IMG/VR virus record: IMGVR_UViG_3300032038_000001
Coordinates: 64,001 to 128,000 of that record
Source of the DNA: a virus
Lineage: Duplodnaviria; Caudoviricetes
DNA length: 64,000 nucleotides
Reading direction: 5' to 3' (one strand)
Positions 3,247 to 42,996 of this stretch are shown one piece after another; the first letter of the stretch is position 1; the number at the start of each line of letters is the position of its first letter. The notes below the pieces were generated by a model. It was not told where the DNA came from, did not search any database, and saw only the letters and a program-made list of their open reading frames with translations. The translations under genes and the position numbers were made by a program.

Positions 3247-3303
3247 TAATATCTATATCAATATACGTATATTAAAAAGATAAATATATATATTATTTTT
3301 AAT

Positions 3304-3432
3304 GTAATATATAGGTGAGTAAAAACATCTATATGTTATAAAGAAAACATATACGGTTCTTTACCACATGTCAAGTGGATTTCATTACCCGTAGTCAAAA
3401 GAAATGAAAAAAGTACATAGGAGGTACTTAAA
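3304..3432 (+). ncRNA. structured 5' leader, copy D (5' hairpin + pseudoknot + SD-loop hairpin)
   Basis: Pairings: GTAATATATAGGTG/CATCTATATGTTAT; TACGG/CCGTA; CCAC/GTGG; TTTCATT/AATGAAA; AAGTAC/GTACTT around ATAGGAG. The GTCAA linker is present. Architecture matches 25886, 27322 and 39381. Confidence 0.65.
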
Positions 3433-4368
3433 ATGGAAGTAAAAGTAACAAAAATAGTAAGAGGGTCAATTTTCACAGTCGATGACCACAACCCGACCGG
3501 CGATATCCCATCACACAATTATATCGTCATAAACATGGGTGCTGACAGCATACCATGTGCTAAAGTAATGTGTATGGGGATAACCTCATGCCGGAACGCA
3601 TCACCGACAAATATTTTTCATGACATGATGCCTATAGTCATGAGTAATGGCTATAAATGTTATGTCGATACAACGAAAGTTTACTTCTTTAGACCCCAGG
3701 AGGTAAACTTAAATAGATTTAAGGGCAGTATTGATCTATTGATAGTAGAAAAGCTGTTAAAAGTTTTTCTAATACGGGTGGGTCTACTGCCTTTAGAGGA
3801 GTATTCAGTATTAAAGAAGGAACTGGGGTTGATAGATATATCGACCCCACAGAAGAACAAGTCTCCTCTAACTTCTGTAGATGAGGAAGACACGGTTTCT
3901 GTAACTTCTTCCTCATCTACAGAATCTTCTAAGATTTCTTCATCTGATAAAGATGAAAAGAAAGTCAAAGAAGAAAGTAAAAAGGATGAAATAGCAACAC
4001 CATGGTACCCACGGTTGATAGCTGAGTATACAGACGAGCAGCTCGAAAGAGCTCTTGTCATACTGAAATCTGGCGACGCCGAATGGTGTGCCAGAGAGAT
4101 GCGTTGCAACAGTCACAGCGCAGTAAAACATAAATTAAAGAGGATTACTGAGGAGATTAATCTAAGAACTCCTCAAAAATTCTCTGAAAAATTCCAGAAA
4201 TTCGGCTCAAAACCGGAATTCTGGGAAAAAAGTGACTTAGAGCGCTTCTCTAAGCTCTTTACAAGTGACAGAGAACAACTCGAAGTCGAAAGTGGTCAAA
4301 AGACCACACAGTTGTTCAAAATATTTGATACAGTCAAAAAGGAATTGAAAAGGAGGGGAATAAGATAA
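3433..4368 (+). CDS. protein with N-terminal PemK/MazF-like domain, Ser/Glu-rich linker and helical C-terminus
   Basis: RGSIFTVD..P.G....HNYIVI....VMCMGITS resembles the PemK pattern RGDI.WVD..P..G.E..K.RP.LV.....V.VAPITS. Confidence 0.5.
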   Translation: MEVKVTKIVRGSIFTVDDHNPTGDIPSHNYIVINMGADSIPCAKVMCMGITSCRNASPTNIFHDMMPIVMSNGYKCYVDTTKVYFFRPQEVNLNRFKGSIDLLIVEKLLKVFLIRVGLLPLEEYSVLKKELGLIDISTPQKNKSPLTSVDEEDTVSVTSSSSTESSKISSSDKDEKKVKEESKKDEIATPWYPRLIAEYTDEQLERALVILKSGDAEWCAREMRCNSHSAVKHKLKRITEEINLRTPQKFSEKFQKFGSKPEFWEKSDLERFSKLFTSDREQLEVESGQKTTQLFKIFDTVKKELKRRGIR

Positions 4369-4457: not shown

Positions 4458-4474
4458 TATATATTATTTTTTTG
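4458..4474 (+). promoter_or_regulatory. early-type promoter TATATATTAT-N6-G for non-virion RNAP beta-C
   Basis: Exact motif, with RBS GAAAGGAA and ATG 4511 downstream. Confidence 0.65.
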
Positions 4475-6472: not shown

Positions 6473-7273
6473 ATGACGGATATTAATTTAGATGAAAATC
6501 GAAATTATAATGAAGAGATATGGCACAAAATAATATATGATGATTTAAAAGGGAACTATTCAGTTAGTAATATGGGTAGAGTTAGAAATGACACTACTGA
6601 AAAGGTTTTAAAACCATGGGTTACTAATAAAGGATATTTAGCTATATACTTACCAGCAAAGAAAAACACTGGAAAAAAAGTATGTAGATTTACTATTCAT
6701 TGGTTGGTCTTAGCTATGTTTACTGATGAACATGAAAAAATATACGATTCTAGATGGATAGTAAATCATAAAGATGGTATTAAACACCATAGCTATTTAT
6801 CAAATTTAGAATGGGTCACTTATAGTGGAAATTATAATCATGCAATTGAAAACGGACTATGTAATAATTATGGAGATGAAACAAAAAATTCATCACATAC
6901 TTCAGAAGAAGTAAGAAAAATTGCAGAATTATTAGTTCTTGATAAATCATACCAAGAAATTATTGAAATTATGGGATATGAAAATAATTTTAATACACGA
7001 AATTTTCTCAGTAGTATTGGAACAAGAACTAAGTGGAAGAATATAACAAAAGATTATAATTTTAAAACACATACGAAATCAACTATATATAAATATTCCG
7101 AAAAAACTATTCATAAAATATGCAAATGTATAGAAGACGGTTATAGGAATTATGAAATAATTAATGAGCTTCATATAACAGATAAAAAAGAAGCTAAAAA
7201 ATATTTATCTCTCATTTATAGAATTAAAAAGCATACAGCTTTTAAAGAAATATCTAAAAAATATAATATGTGA
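6473..7273 (+). CDS. NUMOD4/HNH homing endonuclease (intron-encoded)
   Basis: EIWHKI..NYSVSNMGRVRN (NUMOD4), HWLV and VNHKDG...NLEWVT (HNH). The ORF is looped out by AAAATACTC/GAGTATTTT. Confidence 0.92.
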   Translation: MTDINLDENRNYNEEIWHKIIYDDLKGNYSVSNMGRVRNDTTEKVLKPWVTNKGYLAIYLPAKKNTGKKVCRFTIHWLVLAMFTDEHEKIYDSRWIVNHKDGIKHHSYLSNLEWVTYSGNYNHAIENGLCNNYGDETKNSSHTSEEVRKIAELLVLDKSYQEIIEIMGYENNFNTRNFLSSIGTRTKWKNITKDYNFKTHTKSTIYKYSEKTIHKICKCIEDGYRNYEIINELHITDKKEAKKYLSLIYRIKKHTAFKEISKKYNM

Positions 7274-20690: not shown

Positions 20691-23600
20691 ATGGCTATGG
20701 CTAAAGGATATGTTAGTACTACATACCAAATCACAAGTACAACACAACTCTCACCATCTATTGGCTATGATGGTGATATAGCATTTTTAGTTGATGATAG
20801 AAATAAGAGAGCAATTGCTCAATTTTTTAAAAGAGATGGAACATGGCAGCGGGTTAATAATAACGCAACTGCTAAAGAAATAGATGCCACTGAACTATAT
20901 GAAATGATTCTGGAAAATGGTCAACGTATAACTGATTTAAATCGTGGTATGCAAAATTATGAAGAAACAACTGATGGTACTTTAAACAATCATGCCGCAA
21001 CATTAGTTAATCATACAACATCAATAAATGAACATGAAAATGAAATTACAGAAATACAGGAAATCATTGAACATTTAGATCCTAGTGGTGGTGGCGTTGG
21101 TAAAAGCACTACTGGTGTGGAGTATGATGTTGATGGGACTTCTTATACTGGAGATGTTGGTGCTGAAGTTTTTAATAATTATGAAGATAATAAAGGTATT
21201 GGAAAATATTCACATACTGAAGGTAAAGGTAATATAAGTATTGGGCTTGCCGCTCATACAGAGGGCTATCAAACAAAAACTTCTAATACTGGCGCACATG
21301 CTGAAGGAATAATGGGTAAAGCCACTGGTATAGGTGCTCATGTTGAGGGTGCATCAACTACAATTACTGTTGATGATGAACCCGTTGAAGTGGGGTCTGA
21401 GGCATCAGGTAAAGGCTCTCATGTTGAAGGTATTTATAATATTACAGCAGCTGATGCATCTCATGCTGAAGGTAGTAGTAACCGGATTATTAGTAATGCT
21501 TCTCATGGATATAATGGATTTGCAGCACATATAGAAGGTGATAATAACGTTATTACTAATTCGGATAGTGCACATGCTGAAGGAACTCATAATGTCATAA
21601 CCGATGCCGCATATTCTCATGCTGAAGGCAATCTCACTACAGTTACTGGTTTAGGTTCTCATGCTGAAGGATATAAATCTACCGCAAGTGGTGAGTATTC
21701 ACATTCTGAAGGAAACTATACTACAGCTAGTGGAGCGGCATCTCACGCTGAAGGAAGTGGAACTAGTTCAAAAGGTATTCAATCTCATGCCGAAGGTAGT
21801 GGTTGCCAATCTATTTCTCCTTATTCTCATGCCGAAGGTGCTGGAACTACAGCAGGATCAGTTTCACAAACAACCGGTAATCCCGTAGGTGCAGGTCAGC
21901 ATGCCGAAGGCGGTGGTTGTAAGGCAATCGGAAGTTATTCACATGCAGAAGGTAGTGGTTCAACTGCAAATAGTGATTACTCACATGCAGAAGGTAACGC
22001 TAGTACAGCTAGTGGTTTAGGTTCTCATACTGAAGGATATAAATCTGCTGCAAGTGGTGAGTATTCACATTCTGAAGGAAGCAGTACTACTGCTAGTGGA
22101 GCTGCATCACACTCCGAAGGAAGTGGAACTAGTGCAAAAGGTACTCAGTCTCATGCCGAAGGAGGCGGAACAACTGCTAGTGGAGGTCAGTCTCATGCCG
22201 AAGGAGCTGGTTGTCAAGCTATCTCTCCTCAATCTCATGCTGAAGGTCTTGGAACTGTAGCGGGATCAGTTTCACAAACAACTGGTAACCCTGAAGGTTC
22301 CTGTCAGCACGCTGAAGGTGGTGGTTGTAAGGCAATCGGAAGTTATTCACATGCAGAAGGTAACGGTTCAACTGCGAACGGTGCTCAATCTCATGCCGAA
22401 GGTAACATTAGTACAGCTACTGGTATGGGTTCTCATGCTGAAGGAAGCGGAACACATGCAAATGGTGCTCAATCTCATGCTGAAGGAAATGGTTCAACCG
22501 CGAATGGCGATCAATCTCATGCCGAAGGTGGTGGAACGACTGCCACTGGTATGGGTTCGCACGCTGAAGGTGGTGGATGTCAGGCTATTTCTCCTCAATC
22601 TCATGCCGAAGGTGGTGGAAGTATAGCAGGATCAATTTCACAAACAACTGGCAAGCCCATAGGTTCCTGTCAGCATGCTGAAGGCGGTGGTTGTAAGGCA
22701 ATCGGAAGTAATTCTCATGCTGAAGGATTCGGTTCAACTGCGAATGGAGATTATTCACATGCTGAAGGTTACATCAGTACAACTACTGGTGTAGGCTCAC
22801 ATGCTGAAGGCGGTGCTTGTCAGGCAAATGGAAATTATTCTCATGCCGAAGGTAACGGTAGTACAGCTACCGGTATGGGTTCTCACGCCGAAGGATCAGC
22901 AACAAATGTAAACGGTGACTGTTCACACGTTGAAGGTTCTGGAATAACTGCAAATGGTAACTTTATTCATGCTGAAGGTGCAGGTTATACAGTTACTGGC
23001 GGTTCGTCTCATATCGAAGGTACACTACATACTGAATTAACTGCAAACATATCTCATATCGAGGGTACTGCGCATACAGGTAACATGCATATATCTCATG
23101 TTGAAGGCGCAAATAATACAGTGAATAACGAATATAATCATGTTGAAGGAACCGAAAATATAGCATATTCAAAATCAGATCGTGTTCATATTGAAGGTGA
23201 TCGAAACCATAATAATGGTGACAGAATACACATCGAAGGTATGTATAATGTTGTTAACGACAATGATGTATGTGATCATGTAGAAGGGTATAATAATGAA
23301 ATTAAGGGTATAGTAACAACCACAACTGTAGAACGTGATGAAGTACGAAAAAAAACACCATCATATTGTCATGTTGAAGGTAGTAGAAATATAATAAAAA
23401 CTAATCAATATGGTGATGATTCATCATTAGCAAGTCATCGTTATAGTCATATAGAAGGCTACCAAAATATAATTGAGGGTGGTCATGGAAGCCATGTTGG
23501 AGGAGCACAGAATATATCAGCATCTAGATGGCAGACAGTAATCGGTGTTGGTAACTTACCTGATACAAATAATGAATTTGCATTTATTATAGGTAATGGT

Positions 23601-25513: not shown

Positions 25514-25885
25514 TTAGCGTCTGGGGAAACCTAACAGGCTAATATCCCAACCGAATATTTCCTGATAGATATGACGTTTTCTCTCGAAAGGTACGTCGTT
25601 AAACGTACCCTTCTTAGCATAGCAATATATAGTGTCTGTAAGACTATCTATAATATCATTGAGCTGGTCATTTGCCCAAACTCCAGTTGACTCAAGGTAT
25701 GCTAGCTGATAGACGTTAGGAAGTAATGCCGTTTTGAACAGCGGCATTAACTTATCTTCATTGTTGTCGATATACAGCAAAGATACCGATGATGTGCATT
25801 TCGCAAAAAGTTCGGTATATGTTGTAGCATCTTCATCAACGAGAGAGTTAATAGCTGTGAGAATGTTCTTTACTACGGTATTCAT
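25514..25885 (-). CDS. hypothetical early protein behind structured leader
   Basis: 123-aa ORF with RBS AAGGAGG; terminator at 25464-25509. Confidence 0.8.
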   Translation of the reverse strand: MNTVVKNILTAINSLVDEDATTYTELFAKCTSSVSLLYIDNNEDKLMPLFKTALLPNVYQLAYLESTGVWANDQLNDIIDSLTDTIYCYAKKGTFNDVPFERKRHIYQEIFGWDISLLGFPRR

Positions 25886-26048
25886 ATCATTAGTCCTCCT
25901 TTAGAACTATACTTTGTTTTCTTGACAAGAGTAAACAAAGGAACATATAAAATGTTCGAAAAACTCTTTTAATAATTTTTATGTAATCTTCGTTAATAAT
26001 TAACTCGACGCCTTCGCTATGAAGTTGAGGTAATTATTTATTGATTAC
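25886..26048 (-). ncRNA. structured 5' leader, copy C
   Basis: Cap motif AACTTCATAGCGAAGGCGTC (26026-26007). Pairings AAGAGT/ACTCTT, GAACA/TGTTC, CTTTGTTT/AAACAAAG and TAGTTC/GGACTA; GTCAA linker. Promoter TATATACTAT-N6-G. Confidence 0.75.
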
Positions 26049-26090
26049 ACCGATATAGTATATAATTATAATATTTGATTTTACGGAAAA

Positions 26091-26715: not shown

Positions 26716-26931
26716 ATATTTTCAACTCCTTTCTCATTGATTAGACCGTTAAGTGATGTAAGAATGTTCTTCATTAACAATTAGCTCGACACAGTTATTA
26801 TAATATTTGTTACTGAGATAGAATATAATTATAATAATTGATTTTATGGAAACACAATTATATAAAAAAAAGAGCGAGTGTTGCAATTCGCAACACTCGC
26901 TCTTATATAGCCTTATCGTAGCTGCATTATA

Positions 26932-27321
26932 TTATATGACAGTCTTAAGTGCAGATATGATAGCTTCTGCGTTGTCGAGGATGATATCCTCAATATCATG
27001 AGTAGTACTAACATCAGGACCCCCAAACCCGTCGTTGAGGTCATTGACTTTAACTCGGATTATCATGGATCCTGTTGCGGACCCCTCCTTATTTGTGGTT
27101 GTTATTTCACAATCTCCAAAACTATCCAAGTGGGTGCTGTTGGGAACTACAGTATGAAGACGGATTAAACAGTTATTGGTCATAAGAATTTTCTTATTTC
27201 TCCATCCAATAATTTGGTTTTCTCCGTCATAGATTTCTGTACTGGTCTGAAATTCAGTTTCTGCTATGAGCGATATTAACGCTCCAACTGCAACTGCAGA
27301 AATCTTGTTGAAAGTATACAT
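26932..27321 (-). CDS. hypothetical early protein behind structured leader
   Basis: 129-aa ORF with RBS AAGGAGG; hairpin at 26871-26903. Confidence 0.8.
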   Translation of the reverse strand: MYTFNKISAVAVGALISLIAETEFQTSTEIYDGENQIIGWRNKKILMTNNCLIRLHTVVPNSTHLDSFGDCEITTTNKEGSATGSMIIRVKVNDLNDGFGGPDVSTTHDIEDIILDNAEAIISALKTVI

Positions 27322-27488
27322 ATGATTACCTCCTTGTAATCATACTCTGTTTTATTGACTGTGGTAAACAGAAGGAACATAGAAGTTCCGAGAAACCACA
27401 TTGTTGTTTTTATGTAATAAGTTATATATATAACTTAACCTGATACCTTCGCTATGAAGTTAGGGTAAGATATTATATATTTTATTAC
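27322..27488 (-). ncRNA. structured 5' leader, copy B
   Basis: Cap motif AACTTCATAGCGAAGGTATC (27461-27442). Pairings TGTGGT/ACCACA, GGAAC/GTTCC, TTCTGTTT/AAACAGAG and TATGATTAC/GTAATCATA around AAGGAG; GTCAA linker. Promoter TATATATTAT-N6-G (27504-27488). Confidence 0.75.
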
Positions 27489-27583
27489 CTAGAGATAATA
27501 TATACATAAAATTATTAGGTTTACGGTTTTATAATAAAAAATCATATATATATAAACAAAACTATAGTAATAAAAAATCATAC

Positions 27584-27654
27584 TGGGGTATCGCCAAGAG
27601 GTAAGGCAACGGACTTTGACTCCGTCATCATCAGTTCGAATCTGGTTACCCCAA
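27584..27654 (+). tRNA. tRNA-Gln (anticodon TTG), CCA not encoded
   Basis: Acceptor TGGGGTA/TACCCCA; D-arm GCC AAGAGGTAA GGC; anticodon arm ACGGA CTTTGAC TCCGT; T-arm ATCAG TTCGAAT CTGGT. Late motif at 27555-27566. Confidence 0.93.
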
Positions 27655-27789
27655 TAAAAATAGGAAGTATAAATATTATACTTCCTATTTTTCATTTATC
27701 ATAAATGGTTATATATTATTTTTTTGGTATTGTAAAAATTGTTTTGCATTATCATAAAAACTTATCATTAATAAAATTTTAAAGGAGTA

Positions 27790-33205: not shown

Positions 33206-33366
33206 TTAAAAAAAGAGAATGGTGACATAAAAATCACCATTCTCTTTTTTATTTTATAAGCAATATTGTTGTTTACTTTTTTGTGTTTTATTTTATACTT
33301 CACTTTATTCTAATAAATATATATTATTTTTACGGAATAAGTTAATCAAAAAAGAATGAAAGGATT

Positions 33367-38612: not shown

Positions 38613-38709
38613 ATAAAATTAAGAAACGGATTACTTTAATCCGTTTCTTAATTTTTTTTTAGGTATATATTATTTTTATATATTTAAAATAAATTTAGGA
38701 GGTTTTACT

Positions 38710-39294: not shown

Positions 39295-39380
39295 AGATGA
39301 AAGAATATAGGTATGCGCCTATATTCTTTTTTTATTATAAAACCGTAAACTTAATAATTTCATATATATAATATTTTAGT

Positions 39381-39552
39381 GTAATAAGATAAATGATATC
39401 TTAATCTAACTTCATAGCGAAGGCGTCAGATTAAGATATTATATAGATTATTACATAAACAGCAGTAAGTGGTTTCTCGGAACTTTTATACGTTCCCTCT
39501 GTTTACCACAGTCAATAAAACAGAGTATAAGTACAATAAGGAGGTACTTATT
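39381..39552 (+). ncRNA. structured 5' leader, copy A
   Basis: Cap motif AACTTCATAGCGAAGGCGTC (39408-39427) sits inside TTAATCT/AGATTAA. Pairings GTGGT/ACCAC, GGAAC/GTTCC, CTCTGTTT/AAACAGAG and TAAGTAC/GTACTTA; GTCAA linker. Promoter TATATAATAT-N6-G (39365-39381). Confidence 0.75.
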
Positions 39553-39885
39553 ATGACATTAACAGAAAAAATGGAATTAGCAGAGTTGATTCGTGGTATC
39601 GTTCGTGAAGAGCTGCAGAGAGTGCTTGCGGAAAATAATAAAACTGTAGACAGCGGCACTACTACAACTACCATCGGCAGCACTGAAAATGCAAAGGCTT
39701 ATTTGAAGAAAATAAGCCCGATGATGAGTGAGTATGTGAGCCGATATACCCTCTATGATATCAGCAAAGAAATGAAGTCAGTACTTACAGCTGACGAAAT
39801 AAAGTACGTCATTATCCACCTGGACTCAAATAACTTGTGTAGCAAGAAAAACAGCAGAGACCTAAGTGAGATGCTGTTTAAGTAA
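39553..39885 (+). CDS. hypothetical early protein behind structured leader (110 aa)
   Basis: ATG 39553 follows AAGGAGG; terminator at 39889-39932. Confidence 0.8.
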   Translation: MTLTEKMELAELIRGIVREELQRVLAENNKTVDSGTTTTTIGSTENAKAYLKKISPMMSEYVSRYTLYDISKEMKSVLTADEIKYVIIHLDSNNLCSKKNSRDLSEMLFK

Positions 39886-39930
39886 CAATAAGTGCAGTGT
39901 GAACAATTGTTCACACTGCACTTTATTTTT

Positions 39931-40146: not shown

Positions 40147-42996
40147 TTATAATAACATTGAGTCTACATCAATTTGTCTGGATTTTACTAAGTTTTCATG
40201 GAATTTTTTCATTCCTAAACGTTTGGTAGTTTCAGCAGGACGGGAACATAATAAACCTATATTAATTTTACCAAGTTTATAATAGAAGTCACCTGCACAT
40301 TTGTTACACAGGCATTTAGTATTTCCATATCCTACACAGAACATGGGGCTTCTTAATTTAACAGTTTTGCCGATATATTTAGGAAGTACCTCGTTTGTCA
40401 AACAAATAAGTTTTGAACCTTCAATAATATATCTATATGCAAAATCGTCATAACCTTTTTGAGGTATAGTAATAGTTAAATATCCTAAACTTCCACAATC
40501 TGAATCTTTAGGTCCTAATACTTCTGCTTGCATTGCAGAGATAAGTTCTTTTGAAAGATAACCAGATACTGCTGTACCCTTTGCTTTAGGATAAGCTCCT
40601 CCAATAATTTCATTAGAGTGTGCAGGAATATCTTTTTTATCAAGACCATCAAGTAATGCATTAGTTAGAATATTAAATCCACCATACATTTCATTTTTAA
40701 TTGCACCTCTCATAAGGTACATGTTTTTATAGTTATTACCTATTGAACCACGAGCACCAGACACATAAAGATCCATACCAATATCATCTTTAAGAGCTTC
40801 TTTTGTTTTAGCAATAAGTTCTTTTTCAATGAGCTCAGATGCTTTCGGGTCTCCATTAGCGAGTTCATTTTTATACTTTTCTAAGAGCTCCTTTTTCAGT
40901 TTCTTTACTTCGGGTGGAACTTTAAGAATTGTTGGTGTAAATGATGTTGTTATTACTGCATGAAATTGGAGACCTAACCAGTCACGCATATCTGTATATT
41001 TATACATCTGATCAACTGTTATTTTGTCATCTTTTAATCCTGCAGTTATAGTATTTTCTACTTTTCCAAATCCACCATCATCAAGTACGTAATTGACATA
41101 TCCAAGTATATTTCCTAATCCAACTTCTTCAATCATTAATTTATTAAAAATAAATCTACCTAAAGTTGTTTTTGTAGGACTTGATACTAATGGATATTCA
41201 CTTGGAGTTATTGTTAATATATCAGTACATGAATATTTTGATTTACTTGCTTTTATAGGTTTTTTAACTTTTTCTTCAGGTTTCGTAGTTTCTACTGTTT
41301 CAATATTAACAGTATTACCAAACCACTCAACTAATTTAGAAAAAGTTATATCACCGGGTTTTAATGAAGTGAAGTATTCGGCATCTTCATTACTAAGGAC
41401 TCTATCAGAAGATTTTGGCTCTTTAGTCATTGTGTAGAATGTCTGTATAGCCTCATTTTCAACTTTACGTATATTTTTACCAGAAGCATTTATAAAGTAC
41501 GATTTACTATTCATAGCACGTCTACATTCTTCATTAGCTTCCTGAGTAAAAACAATTTTAACAGTCGTTTGGTCACCATCATAGTCGCCATCGAGTCCAG
41601 GTAAATATGAATTCGAGAACTGGACAGAATCAATGAATTTACTAGCCATTTTATCTGCGGGAACATCAAATTCTATACTTGGATACCACGGATATACTTG
41701 GCCATTGTATGAAGCTACAATAGTCTTTGTTGTTGATACTACTCTTATTTTTGCTAAGAATATACCAAACTCATCAAGTAGAGGATAACGTGTTACAAGA
41801 CAGTATTTATCTTTTGTAACATCATACGCAGCCATATATAAAATATCTGTCCATGTCAGATATCTATTAGCTTGTGTTGCTAACTCTACTTGAGTGTTAG
41901 GATCTAATATTTTTCCTTTAAATCTTAAATAACCTTTTTTATTAGTACCTTCTAATGGAACTTCAATCTTATTAAATCTTGACTCAGGGTCTTTGATATA
42001 GAGATCAATCATTTTCTTAAAATATTTTTCGTTAAATGTTGATGACGGATCTTTTAACTTAACTAAGCCAGTATCAGCATTGTTAAAACCATATACAGCA
42101 TTTGCTATTTGACTATTGTCAATAACCTCTCTCTCAAAAAAGTTTTTGACCCAATACATAATAAATGGATACGCCAAGCTACAAACTTGTGATATAGGAA
42201 TTGCTGCATGTCTGAAATCAGTTAACATGTCTTCAGGTCTTTCAGCATGAAACGTGGGTGCTGTTATAACAGTACGTGTACAATAGTCAACGTTTCTTCC
42301 TAATAAGTATTTACGTAGTAATCCATTTTTCTTTTCAAGCTTTGTTTTAAAATAATCATATATTTCAACAAGAGTATTCTGTATATTAAAATTAGTAGCA
42401 CTAAACTGGAAATCAAAGACATCTTTATCTTTAACAAGATTGGTATATCTAATTAATTGCGAATATAATTGATTTATATTTCCAGTTTCACCGCTACCAC
42501 TTTTACTATATGTTACATCTCTATAAAAAGCAGGTATTACTAAGCAATAATGAATAAATATTTCATTTTTTTTACTTTTGGTAATAAGGTCAATTCTTTC
42601 ATTACGCATGCCTTGTTCTATAGAGTATTCCCATTTTATTTTATTCCAGTTATTATAAAGGAAATCTAAACCAGTATCTCCATTATCATCTTTTACAAGT
42701 CTTCCATCCTTATCAATAGAATAATACTCCTCACCGTTTATAATTCTTTCTACATTTCTATACAAACGTTTCAATGCTTTATAAATATGAGGATGAAAAA
42801 AATAACCATGAAGATTGATATATGCAAAAGTTTCTTTTCTGGATTTTGTTGTTATTCCAAAAATTTCATTAGATATTAATCCATTTGGATGAGGTATACC
42901 TCCTCTTTGAAATAAAACACCAGATGTAACTTCTTGTAGATGATTCAATTCAATGAATTCTTCCATATTGAATAAATCAATTTTCAAATTTATCAC
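40147..42996 (-). CDS. rpoC: RNA polymerase beta' subunit (probably virion RNAP)
   Basis: GLISNEIFG, VIPAFYR, KNGLLRKYLLGRNVDY..R.VI, catalytic DGDYDGD, SGARG, SGYLSK, RSPMFC..C..C.G and a trigger-loop-like AETTKRLGMKKFH. Late motif at 43015-43026. Confidence 0.93.
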   Translation of the reverse strand: MINLKIDLFNMEEFIELNHLQEVTSGVLFQRGGIPHPNGLISNEIFGITTKSRKETFAYINLHGYFFHPHIYKALKRLYRNVERIINGEEYYSIDKDGRLVKDDNGDTGLDFLYNNWNKIKWEYSIEQGMRNERIDLITKSKKNEIFIHYCLVIPAFYRDVTYSKSGSGETGNINQLYSQLIRYTNLVKDKDVFDFQFSATNFNIQNTLVEIYDYFKTKLEKKNGLLRKYLLGRNVDYCTRTVITAPTFHAERPEDMLTDFRHAAIPISQVCSLAYPFIMYWVKNFFEREVIDNSQIANAVYGFNNADTGLVKLKDPSSTFNEKYFKKMIDLYIKDPESRFNKIEVPLEGTNKKGYLRFKGKILDPNTQVELATQANRYLTWTDILYMAAYDVTKDKYCLVTRYPLLDEFGIFLAKIRVVSTTKTIVASYNGQVYPWYPSIEFDVPADKMASKFIDSVQFSNSYLPGLDGDYDGDQTTVKIVFTQEANEECRRAMNSKSYFINASGKNIRKVENEAIQTFYTMTKEPKSSDRVLSNEDAEYFTSLKPGDITFSKLVEWFGNTVNIETVETTKPEEKVKKPIKASKSKYSCTDILTITPSEYPLVSSPTKTTLGRFIFNKLMIEEVGLGNILGYVNYVLDDGGFGKVENTITAGLKDDKITVDQMYKYTDMRDWLGLQFHAVITTSFTPTILKVPPEVKKLKKELLEKYKNELANGDPKASELIEKELIAKTKEALKDDIGMDLYVSGARGSIGNNYKNMYLMRGAIKNEMYGGFNILTNALLDGLDKKDIPAHSNEIIGGAYPKAKGTAVSGYLSKELISAMQAEVLGPKDSDCGSLGYLTITIPQKGYDDFAYRYIIEGSKLICLTNEVLPKYIGKTVKLRSPMFCVGYGNTKCLCNKCAGDFYYKLGKINIGLLCSRPAETTKRLGMKKFHENLVKSRQIDVDSMLL

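What the first reader, a model, noticed from the sequence alone, without database searches (positions are those of the whole stretch)
39401..39434. Near-invariant 20-nt cap AACTTCATAGCGAAGGYRTC on a covarying stem (three copies)
Seen: AACTTCATAGCGAAGGCGTC occurs at 39408(+) and 26026(-), and ...GGTATC at 27461(-). The closing pairs covary (TCT/AGA, CCT/AGG, CTC/GAG). It can fold as CTTC-ATAGC-GAAG with an asymmetric internal loop. Copy D lacks it, so it is a separable module. Exact conservation inside otherwise drifting leaders implies a protein- or ligand-recognition site. Speculation: GCGAAGGCG also matches bacterial 16S rRNA helix 23a (GGCGAAGGCG), which hints at rRNA mimicry or r-protein binding. 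An antitermination (nut/put-like) site for the virion RNAP is an alternative.
Basis: partly seen in the sequence, partly recalled or inferred. Interest (0 to 1): 0.7.

Follow-up and report, generated by a model that had tools for sequence, protein, structure and literature searches.

The report
Conserved apex of early-mRNA leader hairpin
The 20-base motif is real: it caps a long hairpin that probably forms the very 5' end of nine early messenger RNAs of an uncultured 250-kb jumbo phage, and it is the most conserved part of that hairpin, so something specific probably recognises it, but what that is remains untested and the proposed ribosomal-RNA mimicry is not supported.

Summary
Observation confirmed. 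AACTTCATAGCGAAGGYRTC occurs three times in the window (0.01 expected by chance) and nine times in the 250,395-bp jumbo-phage genome. It is not free-standing. It is the apex of a 67-78-nt AU-rich hairpin inside a ~215-nt promoter-leader cassette: a CCGTAAAC box, an AR9-like early promoter TATATAnTAT-N6-G, the hairpin starting at that G, a pseudoknot, an SD displayed in a hairpin loop, then the ATG. Each cassette drives one small ORFan gene ending in a strong terminator. The stem covaries. The cap stays 93% identical across the deepest split between copies, where the arms are 41-64% identical. It is exact in orthologous leaders whose proteins are only 64-71% identical.

Best reading (inferred, about 0.45): a 5'-terminal protective or processing hairpin whose asymmetric apex is a sequence-specific recognition site, giving joint post-transcriptional control of an early gene set.

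- The 9-nt match to 16S rRNA is within chance (p 0.06-0.15) and falls on the variable positions.
- Antitermination has no terminator to act on.
- "Copy D" is a decayed remnant, not proof of modularity.

This scan had already noted the same leader family in this genome. The element matches no Rfam family.

The parts
39340..39350 (+). AAACCGTAAAC box, about -40 to -30 from the inferred start site; upstream element of the cassette promoter
   Evidence: Present, with at most 1 mismatch, upstream of 8 of the 9 copies. A related CGTAAAA box sits in copy C, in remnant D and in the distant relative L196 in front of a different leader.
39365..39381 (+). Early-type promoter core TATATAATAT-N6-G; the G at 39381 is the inferred transcription start
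   Evidence: TATATA[N][ACT]AT-N6-G is present in all nine copies. The same motif, TATATATTAT-N6-G, recurs upstream of many other genes and in relatives. It matches the mapped AR9 virion-RNAP early consensus AAATATATATTAT-(6N)-G+1 (PMC5312081). The start site is inferred by analogy and has not been measured.
39381..39454 (+). Copy A hairpin: lower helix GUAAUAA/UUAUUAC, a 2 x 2 loop (GA/GA), a middle helix, three covarying closing pairs, then the cap
   Evidence: MFE -26.2 kcal/mol. Covariance model R1 scores 95.5 bits on the sense strand and 54.8 on the antisense strand. Compensatory changes occur at 8 stem pairs, about 5 of them cleanly.
39408..39427 (+). The cap (the finding): AA / CUUC-AUAGC-GAAG / GCGUC
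   Evidence: Invariant in 17 distinct sequences: AACTTCATA, AAG and TC. Variable: loop positions 4-5 (G/A, C/T) and the Y and R of GYRUC.
39469..39525 (+). H-type pseudoknot domain of the same leader (GUGG/CCAC crossing CUCUGUUU/AAACAGAG, with a GGAAC/GUUCC insert)
   Evidence: 100% paired, with 3 of 4 pairs of the knot helix changed on both sides (GUGG/CCAC, AGAG/CUCU, AUGG/CCAU).
39530..39555 (+). SD (AAGGAGG, 39538-39544) displayed in the loop of a small covarying hairpin, followed by the ATG at 39553
   Evidence: Read directly from the sequence. The stems differ between copies (AGUAC/GUACU, AUGAUUAC/GUAAUCAU, UAGUUC/GACUA).
39553..39885 (+). 110-aa ORFan driven by copy A; terminator at 39890-39923
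   Evidence: No Pfam or PHROG family. Orthologues are 64-71% identical.
27413..27488 (-). Copy B hairpin (cap 27442-27461, GUAUC variant); drives the 129-aa ORFan at 26932-27321
   Evidence: 95.6 bits.
25982..26048 (-). Copy C hairpin, from the divergent lineage (cap 26007-26026); drives the 123-aa ORFan at 25514-25885
   Evidence: 56.3 bits. The arms are 41-64% identical to the other lineage, yet the cap is 20/20 identical to copy A.
26716..26852 (-). 'Copy D': a decayed cassette. The promoter and the 3' arm are kept, the cap is deleted, and the leader is fused into a gene fragment.
   Evidence: no hairpin, z = +0.56.
3290..3435 (+). Second leader type: an early promoter of the general TATATATTAT type (no CCGTAAAC box in this copy; the L037 example has it), a 15-bp 5' hairpin with a different apex, a different pseudoknot and the same SD hairpin
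   Evidence: z = -7.67. A second example is in L037.

Best explanation
The 20-nt motif is the apical cap of a long AU-rich RNA hairpin with 22-30-nt arms. The hairpin begins at the first transcribed base of an AR9-like early promoter of the virion-RNA-polymerase type. Nine promoter-leader cassettes in the phage genome carry it, so nine monocistronic early ORFan mRNAs would start with the same structure.

Proposed mechanism: the base-paired 5' end shields the mRNA from 5'-end-dependent decay. The invariant, asymmetric apex (AA / CUUC-AUAGC-GAAG / GYRUC) is a sequence-specific docking site for a trans-acting factor, most likely a protein of the phage or the host. Through that site the stability, processing or timing of this whole set of early messages would be controlled together.

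Shown here: the copies, the fold, the covariation of the stem, the higher conservation of the cap, and the cassette anatomy. Inferred: the transcription start, that the element acts as RNA, that it protects the message, and that a binding partner exists.
For: 1. Anatomy. All nine copies share the order promoter, hairpin, pseudoknot, SD hairpin, ATG. Each is followed by one small ORF and a strong terminator.

2. Start site. The hairpin's first G is the G of TATATAnTAT-N6-G in every copy. The same motif precedes many other genes here and in relatives whose RNAP beta' is 57-78% identical. It equals the mapped AR9 early consensus with its +1 G (PMC5312081). The neighbouring beta' gene is most similar to the AR9 virion-RNAP subunit.

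3. Real structure. On the MAFFT alignment 98.1% of cells are paired and 11 pairs changed on both sides, against at most 2 pairs for the slid controls. On the 17-sequence model-fitted alignment, eight stem pairs show more than one standard pair type through changes on both sides.

4. Selection on the cap. Between the divergent lineage (window copy C at 26007-26026, L040, L124c) and the other 14 sequences, cap identity is 0.93. The arms are 0.41-0.64 and the pseudoknot blocks 0.27-0.88. The 16-nt core is exact in all orthologous leaders that were found through their protein, at 64-71% amino-acid identity, and in extra copies that were not used to fetch their loci (L124, L136).

5. Asymmetry. The invariant positions are not palindromic, and model R1 scores about 40 bits higher on the gene strand.

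6. Arm length varies from 22 to 30 nt. This argues against rigid docking of the cap onto the pseudoknot and favours an external partner.

7. Established background. 5'-terminal stem-loops stabilise bacterial mRNAs, and RNases E, J and Y prefer accessible 5'-monophosphate ends (review PMC7509114; PMC4838370).
Against: - There are no transcript data, so the start site rests on analogy with AR9. AR9 early mRNAs themselves have short leaders and rarely start with a hairpin: 4 of 21, below the shuffled expectation of 0.35.
- G-U against A-C counts in the stem give no strand signal (5 against 13; 4 against 5). The stem alone therefore cannot distinguish an RNA hairpin from a DNA hairpin.
- No candidate binding protein was identified. 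The phage encodes no detectable RNase III domain or dsRNA-binding domain.
- The relatives that carry the cap are close at the core-gene level (beta' 99% identical). The conservation argument therefore rests mostly on diverged paralogous copies.
- The cap always occurs together with the type I pseudoknot (17 of 17), so an intramolecular role is not excluded.
Confidence: 0.45

Rival explanations
1. The hairpin is a host RNase III-type processing site. The long dsRNA stem is the substrate, and the conserved asymmetric internal loop and cap set where, or whether, one strand is cut, as in the RNase III sites of T7 and SP82 early mRNAs.
For: The arms are 22-30 bp of interrupted dsRNA, long enough for bacterial RNase III. 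The 2 x 5 asymmetric loop and the tandem GA/GA loop are conserved. [quoted passage not shown]
Against: The element lies at the 5' end of monocistronic units, not between cistrons. The phage encodes no RNase III or dsRBD. Known bacterial RNase III determinants lie in the stem rather than the apical loop (from memory). Cutting would remove the 5' protection.
Confidence: 0.15
2. The nascent hairpin acts on the transcribing polymerase, in the manner of TAR, put or nut. The cap recruits a factor, or contacts the virion RNAP directly, to change elongation, pausing or early shut-off.
For: The position is right: it would be the first 75 nt of the nascent RNA at an early promoter. An apical loop plus a bulge-like loop on a +1 hairpin resembles HIV TAR (from memory).
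Against: There is no terminator or obvious pause site between the leader and the ORF. Every unit has its own promoter and terminator, so read-through is not needed. Other early promoters of the same class lack the element. No nut or put family matched in Rfam.
Confidence: 0.1
3. The cap makes an intramolecular tertiary contact with the adjacent type I pseudoknot, so hairpin and knot form one folded leader domain.
For: The cap hairpin and the type I pseudoknot always occur together (17 of 17). The two type II leaders have neither.
Against: Arm length varies by about 8 bp, and the linker is the least conserved segment (0.54-0.69). The Y/R changes are not tied to the closing pairs (CTC/GAG occurs with CG, TA and TG), though covariation with more distant leader columns was not tested. 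No convincing complementarity was seen on inspection of the sequences.
Confidence: 0.1
4. The element works at the DNA level. The centre of a long palindrome would be a site for a recombination or DNA-binding protein, or a breakage hotspot, that shuffles promoter-ORFan cassettes in the manner of PeSL elements.
For: The cassette organisation resembles PeSL elements, where a crossover was mapped inside the stem-loop's loop (PMC2839356). Three different decayed copies have a breakpoint at the cap and keep only the 3' arm intact (window copy D, L186 near 3490, L192 near 4320). Relatives differ by inserted or replaced ORFans at this locus. The stem shows no G-U strand bias.
Against: The invariant cap positions are not symmetric, unlike typical dimer-binding sites. 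The element is always downstream of the inferred start and next to a pseudoknot that shows clear RNA covariation. Breakpoints at palindrome centres are expected from palindrome instability alone.
Confidence: 0.1
5. There is no function specific to the cap. It looks conserved only because of recent duplication or gene conversion among copies.
For: The copies form sub-families that are nearly identical, such as 103408 and 133692, or 13449 and 131736. The phages that carry the cap are closely related (beta' 99% identical).
Against: In the same molecules the flanking arms have diverged to 41-64% identity, with indels and compensatory changes, while the cap stays at 93%. Conversion tracts limited to 20 nt at a hairpin apex are implausible.
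Confidence: 0.07
6. The cap mimics 16S rRNA helix 23a (GGCGAAGGCG) and binds a ribosomal protein.
For: GCGAAGGCG is identical to E. coli 16S positions 725-733.
Against: 6% of shuffled caps share a word of 9 nt or more with 16S, and 15% with 16S or 23S. The match shrinks to 7-8 nt in the GTATC, GCATC and GTGTC variants, and only 8 of 17 distinct copies keep it. No ribosomal-protein leader family matched at E <= 10. Complementarity to rRNA is at most 7 nt.
Confidence: 0.03

Closest known systems
PeSL (promoter-early stem-loop) cassettes of T4-type phages RB49 and phi1 (PMC2839356)
   Same: A conserved composite of a strong early promoter, a stem-loop and an SD is repeated in front of many unrelated ORFans. 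The units are transcriptionally insulated. Relatives differ by insertion or replacement of ORFans at these elements.
   Different: PeSL promoters are sigma70-like and their stem-loops are G/C-rich terminators or attenuators placed around the promoter. Here the promoter is of the AR9 virion-RNAP type. The stem is AU-rich, about 75 nt long, lies downstream of the inferred +1, has no U-tract, carries an invariant asymmetric apex and is followed by a pseudoknot.
5'-terminal stem-loop mRNA stabilisers (for example the E. coli ompA 5' hairpin; B. subtilis examples reviewed in PMC7509114)
   Same: A hairpin that starts at or within a few nucleotides of the 5' end of the mRNA.
   Different: Known stabilisers are short and need no particular loop sequence. 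This one is 2-3 helical turns long and its apex is conserved. No half-life data exist for it.
RNase III processing hairpins of phage early mRNAs (T7 R sites; SP82 sites cut by B. subtilis RNase III, cited in PMC4838370)
   Same: Repeated hairpins with similar sequence, conserved internal loops and stems of 20 bp or more, found in early transcripts of a phage.
   Different: Those sites lie between cistrons of polycistronic RNAs. This element is at the 5' end of monocistronic units. Cleavage has not been tested.
The rne 5'-UTR sensor hairpin (RNase E autoregulation; cited in PMC7509114), and HIV TAR or lambda boxB as protein-recognised promoter-proximal hairpins
   Same: A conserved loop or internal loop on a 5'-UTR hairpin serves as a specific protein recognition site that sets the fate of the message or the behaviour of the polymerase.
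   Different: There is no sequence or Rfam similarity. The partner is unknown. No downstream terminator exists that would call for antitermination.
Early (virion RNAP) promoters of Bacillus phage AR9 (PMC5312081)
   Same: Core TATATAnTAT, a 6-nt spacer and a G start.
   Different: AR9 early leaders are short and mostly unstructured at the 5' end (4 of 21 begin with a helix). AR9 has no cap hairpin.

Membership tests
Any Rfam 15 family | Covariance-model score at or above the family's gathering threshold | tested here: not met
   The window and seven related loci match only tRNAs. On the leader at E <= 10 the only hits are plant miRNA precursors, through the long AU stem (at most 20.9 bits against 90-100), and cow-rumen-4 at 19.8 bits against 48.5, on the pseudoknot and SD part.
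PeSL cassettes | A conserved early promoter plus stem-loop plus SD, repeated upstream of ORFans | tested here: met
   Nine copies. All nine downstream proteins lack a Pfam family.
PeSL cassettes | A sigma70-like promoter, and a stem-loop that acts as a terminator or attenuator | tested here: not met
   There is no TTGACA-type -35 element at 16-18 bp, and the sigma70 scan of copy A's region listed no site at the cassette promoter. The promoter matches the AR9 early consensus instead. The hairpin is AU-rich, has no U-tract and lies downstream of the inferred +1.
PeSL cassettes | Recombination between copies shuffles ORFans (mini-circles) | not testable with these tools
   Only indirect evidence: extra or replaced ORFans and half-hairpin remnants at the orthologous locus in relatives.
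5'-terminal stem-loop stabilisers | The helix begins within a few nucleotides of the mRNA 5' end | tested here: inconclusive
   The helix starts at the G predicted as +1 in all copies. The start site is inferred from the AR9 consensus and has not been measured.
5'-terminal stem-loop stabilisers | The element lengthens mRNA half-life | not testable with these tools
   No expression or decay data are available.
RNase III sites of phage early mRNA | A dsRNA stem of about two helical turns with a conserved internal loop | tested here: met
   Arms of 22-30 nt. The 2 x 5 loop and the GA/GA loop are conserved.
RNase III sites of phage early mRNA | Intercistronic position and demonstrated cleavage | tested here: not met
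   The position is the 5' end of monocistronic units. Cleavage cannot be tested here. The phage has no RNase III or dsRBD.
nut/put/TAR-type antitermination RNAs | A promoter-proximal RNA element with terminators downstream inside the operon that must be read through | tested here: not met
   No terminator lies between leader and ORF. Each unit ends at a strong terminator and the next unit has its own promoter.
16S rRNA helix 23a mimic / ribosomal-protein operator | Conserved similarity to the rRNA site beyond chance | tested here: not met
   The 9-nt identity has p = 0.06 (16S) to 0.15 (16S or 23S). It is lost in 9 of 17 distinct copies.
AR9-type early (virion RNAP) promoter | AT-rich core TATATATTAT-like, a 6-nt spacer and G at +1 | tested here: met
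   All nine cassettes and at least 16 other sites upstream of genes. Consensus from PMC5312081. Recognition by the virion RNAP itself is inferred.

The most novel reading that the evidence does not exclude
The cap is the address tag of a phage-specific RNA regulon. Nine strong early promoters flood the cell with mRNAs, or with released 75-nt hairpins, that carry one identical apical motif. A dedicated phage or host factor binds that motif. It might switch off, license, localise or protect the early ORFan messages together. Alternatively the abundant hairpin might act as a decoy for a host RNA-sensing or RNA-cutting defence. That would be a bacterial-virus counterpart of TAR-type or VA-RNA-type elements.
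Probability: 0.2. Interest if true: 0.75.

Novelty: new variant of a known kind. Interest (0 to 1): 0.45.

Why it matters
Post-transcriptional control in jumbo phages is almost unexplored. This lineage attaches one elaborate leader (5' hairpin with an invariant apex, pseudoknot, displayed SD) to a set of fast-evolving early ORFans. Such genes are typically involved in host takeover or counter-defence.

If the apex is a protein-binding tag, it gives a direct experimental handle: a pull-down bait, or a reporter leader. That could identify a new RNA-binding regulator and define a co-regulated early gene set. The cassette could also serve as a portable strong expression module for low-GC hosts.

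If the cap only tunes hairpin stability, the finding is a modest addition to the list of phage 5'-UTR structures.

Tried and rejected
- **rRNA mimicry.** Tested against E. coli 16S and 23S with shuffled caps and for antisense complementarity. Rejected as chance.
- **Exact 16-mer scans.** In IMG/VR, 21 of 22 hits were unrelated chance matches; only L012 is a true relative. In metagenomes, 7 true relatives were found among more than 117 hits.
- **Pseudoknot 21-mer scan of IMG/VR.** No hits.
- **BLAST against 50,697 deposited phage genomes.** No match.
- **Covariance model R1.** Searched over the whole genome and 20 related loci. It found the nine copies and their relatives but no cap-less or divergent homologues. 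It found nothing in about 22 kb around the beta' gene of four phages at 57-78% beta' identity, which is too small a sample to show absence.
- **G-U against A-C strand bias in the stem.** Uninformative.
- **Whether other early transcripts start exactly with a helix.** About half of the candidates do by MFE. My constrained-fold control did not work, so this carries no weight.
- **Antisense or sense partners of the cap elsewhere in the genome.** One 12-mer, CGAAGGCGTCAG, lies in the ORF-free 'RNA B' region at genome 51719-51730. The genome-wide expectation for any 12-mer match is 0.23, and no orthologue was available to test, so I treat it as chance.
- **Protein-based searches of IMG/VR with two cassette proteins.** No relatives.
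- **Whole records of relatives.** Those assembled from metagenomes could not be searched.
- **One script timed out** and was replaced by an analytic estimate.

Full report
**Observation**

The pattern AACTTCATAGCGAAGGYRTC is present at window 39408-39427 (+), 26007-26026 (-) and 27442-27461 (-). That is three matches against 0.01 expected from shuffles.

The window is bases 64001-128000 of a 250,395-bp IMG/VR virus record with 31% G+C. This record holds nine copies of the 16-nt core: five exact, three with one change and one with two. Eight are on the minus strand and one on the plus strand.

The phage is an uncultured jumbo phage. The neighbouring 949-aa gene (window 40147-42996, minus strand) is a multisubunit-RNAP beta'-like protein. 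It is 29-37% identical to those of Fusobacterium, Bacillus (AR9/PBS1) and Staphylococcus jumbo phages. Its best AR9 match is annotated as a virion-RNAP subunit.

**What the motif belongs to**

Each copy sits in a conserved cassette of about 215 nt. The order of parts is:
- an AAACCGTAAAC box;
- an AT-rich core, TATATAnTAT;
- six bases, then a G;
- a 67-78-nt hairpin that begins with that G and carries the motif at its tip;
- a short A-rich linker;
- an H-type pseudoknot;
- an AGGAGG Shine-Dalgarno sequence presented in the loop of a small hairpin;
- the ATG.

Each cassette drives a single small ORF (46-311 aa) that ends in a strong intrinsic terminator. None of the nine products matches a Pfam family. 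The three in the window match no PHROG family either.

Other agents of this scan had already described the pseudoknot part of this leader family in the same genome. This report concerns the hairpin apex.

**Promoter and inferred start site**

The core with its spacing, TATATA-N-[ACT]-AT-N6-G, is present in all nine cassettes. The closely similar TATATATTAT-N6-G lies upstream of many other genes of the phage. It also occurs in relatives whose beta' is only 57-78% identical.

The motif is the same as the experimentally mapped early promoter of phage AR9, AAATATATATTAT-(6N)-G+1. In AR9 this promoter is used without new protein synthesis and is therefore attributed to the virion RNAP (PMC5312081).

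By that analogy, transcription starts at the G that is the first paired base of the hairpin (window 39381 for copy A). This is an inference. I found no transcript data.

AR9 itself does not have such leaders. Of 21 AR9 early promoters, only 4 give transcripts that start with a helix, below the shuffled expectation. The long structured leader is therefore an innovation of this lineage.

**Structure**

In 9 of the 10 copies folded (the genome's nine plus L012), the hairpin takes the same shape:
- a lower helix, GUAAUAA/UUAUUAC;
- a 2 x 2 loop (GA/GA);
- a middle helix;
- three closing pairs;
- a 2 x 5 asymmetric internal loop (AA opposite GYRUC);
- a 4-bp helix, CUUC/GAAG;
- the pentaloop AUAGC.

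Genome copy 12502, which has two substitutions in the cap, folds its apex differently.

On 17 distinct full leaders (alignment A2), 98.1% of cells are paired. Eleven pairs changed on both sides, against 0-2 for the slid controls. The three closing pairs switch among UCU/AGA, CCU/AGG and CUC/GAG with no unpaired case. The pseudoknot helix switches among GUGG/CCAC, AGAG/CUCU and AUGG/CCAU.

On the alignment fitted to covariance model R1, eight pairs of the long stem show compensatory changes, about five of them cleanly. The cap's own helix never varies, so it is neither supported nor contradicted by covariation.

**Conservation of the cap**

Among the nine copies within this genome, the cap (mean pairwise identity 0.90) is no better conserved than the pseudoknot blocks (0.83-0.97).

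The deep comparison gives a clearer answer. Between the divergent lineage (window copy C, L040, L124c) and the other 14 sequences, the cap is 0.93 identical. The four arm segments are 0.41-0.64, the linker 0.54 and the pseudoknot blocks 0.27-0.88.

Because the relatives were first found with the exact 16-mer, I added samples that were chosen without reference to the cap:
- extra copies in loci that had been fetched for a different copy (L124 with three copies, L136 with two);
- orthologous leaders found through the downstream protein at 64-71% amino-acid identity.

All of these carry the exact 16-mer.

The variable cap positions are loop positions 4 and 5, and the Y and R of GYRUC. All four Y/R combinations occur (GCGUC, GUAUC, GCAUC, GUGUC).

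One caveat applies. The phages that carry the cap are close at the core-gene level (beta' 99% identical). In about 22 kb around the beta' gene of four more distant phages, the model found nothing.

1. rRNA mimicry. GCGAAGGCG does equal E. coli 16S positions 725-733. However, 6% of shuffled caps share a word of 9 nt or more with 16S, and 15% with 16S or 23S. The match includes the freely varying Y/R positions, so it holds in only 8 of 17 distinct copies. There is no notable complementarity to rRNA and no ribosomal-protein leader hit in Rfam.

2. Antitermination. No terminator lies between leader and ORF, and every unit has its own promoter and terminator.

3. Copy D as proof of a separable module. 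Copy D keeps the promoter and the 3' arm. It lacks the cap, has a diverged 5' arm, and has a deletion running from the 3' arm into codon 6 of a copy-C-like gene (KNILTSLNGLINE against KNILTAINSLVDE). It does not fold.

Two further remnants in relatives (L186 and L192) also keep only the 3' arm, with a breakpoint at the cap. This is what instability at a palindrome centre would produce.

Real evidence for modularity comes from a second leader type, seen at window 3290-3435 and in L037. It has an early promoter of the same type, the same GUAAUA start and the same SD hairpin. Its 5' hairpin is shorter and different (z = -7.7), it has no cap, and its pseudoknot differs.

**Mechanism**

What is shown is an RNA-type structure with a selectively maintained, asymmetric apex, repeated in front of nine early-type ORFan genes.

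The reading I favour has two parts. The paired 5' end protects these messages from 5'-end-dependent decay; 5'-terminal stem-loops are established stabilisers, and RNases E, J and Y prefer accessible 5'-monophosphate ends (PMC7509114; PMC4838370). The apex is a docking site for a trans-acting factor that handles the whole set together.

The variable arm length (22-30 nt) and the poorly conserved linker argue against a rigid intramolecular contact. The asymmetry of the invariant positions argues against a symmetric DNA operator.

Rivals that remain open:
- a host RNase III-type processing signal: the stem length and internal loops fit, but the position does not, and the phage encodes no RNase III or dsRBD;
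- a polymerase-directed element of the TAR type;
- a tertiary contact with the pseudoknot, given that the two always occur together;
- a DNA-level role in cassette shuffling, as proposed for PeSL elements (PMC2839356).

The stem's G-U against A-C counts do not discriminate RNA from DNA.

**Comparison with known elements and novelty**

No Rfam family matches, and no deposited phage genome contains the element.

In organisation it is closest to the PeSL promoter-stem-loop-ORFan cassettes. It differs from them in three ways: the promoter class, a transcribed AU-rich hairpin with an invariant apex, and a pseudoknot.

I class it as a new variant of a known kind, namely structured 5' leaders in mobile phage expression cassettes. 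Its partner and function are unknown.

Noticed in passing
window 4458-4474, 27710-27726, 33318-33334, 38664-38673; elsewhere in the genome, and L194-L197: A general early-promoter-like motif, (GGT)TATATATTAT-N6-G, lies upstream of many genes of this phage and of relatives at 57-78% beta' identity. It is the same as the AR9 virion-RNAP early consensus.
   Followed up: partly
window 39340-39350, 27509-27519, about 26082-26089; L196 near 9940 (-): A CCGTAAA(C/A) box about 30-40 nt upstream of the inferred start marks a sub-class of these promoters. In L196 it precedes a completely different leader, so it is older than the cap hairpin.
   Followed up: partly
window 3290-3435 (+); L037 about 6520-6690 (+): A second ('type II') leader with a different 5' hairpin and pseudoknot. 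On the window copy the Rfam 'drum' model (RF02958) aligns over its full length at only 16.4 bits (threshold 43, E 0.45), sharing ACCACA and AAAGAAA. This is a weak lead that the leader pseudoknots may be distant relatives of drum RNA.
   Followed up: no
window 39462-39550: Weak match to the Rfam cow-rumen-4 RNA (RF02948; 19.8 bits against threshold 48.5). It comes mainly from the hairpin that displays AUAAGGAGG in its loop.
   Followed up: no
genome 51719-51730 (outside the window; L152 12119-12130): The 12-mer CGAAGGCGTCAG, which is the 3' half of the cap plus two closing bases, also occurs in the ORF-free 'RNA B' region. The expected number of any 12-mer match in the genome is 0.23, and no orthologue was available to test conservation.
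   Followed up: partly
window 39451-39455, and the same place in 16 of 17 leaders: UACAU spans the 3' foot of the hairpin (UUAC paired, AUAAA single-stranded). From memory, this is the cleavage motif of the B. subtilis and S. aureus MazF endoribonucleases. The phage carries a MazF-like gene behind the type II leader (window about 3435-4368).
   Followed up: no
window 26716-26852 (-); L186 3455-3554; L192 4290-4386: Three independent decayed cassettes keep the 3' arm of the hairpin intact, with the breakpoint at the cap. In relatives an extra 110-aa ORFan is inserted at this locus. This is consistent with palindrome-centre breakage and cassette shuffling.
   Followed up: partly
window 21200-23150 (+): A long array of 42-bp (14-codon) repeats inside a coding region, each unit encoding an S-H-A-E-G-like motif. 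It has more than 29 copies and local G+C of 42%. It is probably a repetitive fibre or surface protein.
   Followed up: no
window 27584-27654 (+): tRNA-Gln (UUG), immediately upstream of and divergent from cassette copy B.
   Followed up: no
L162-L183 (phage AR9): AR9 early transcripts have short leaders. Only 4 of 21 start with a helix, so 5'-terminal hairpins are not a general feature of AR9-type early mRNAs.
   Followed up: yes
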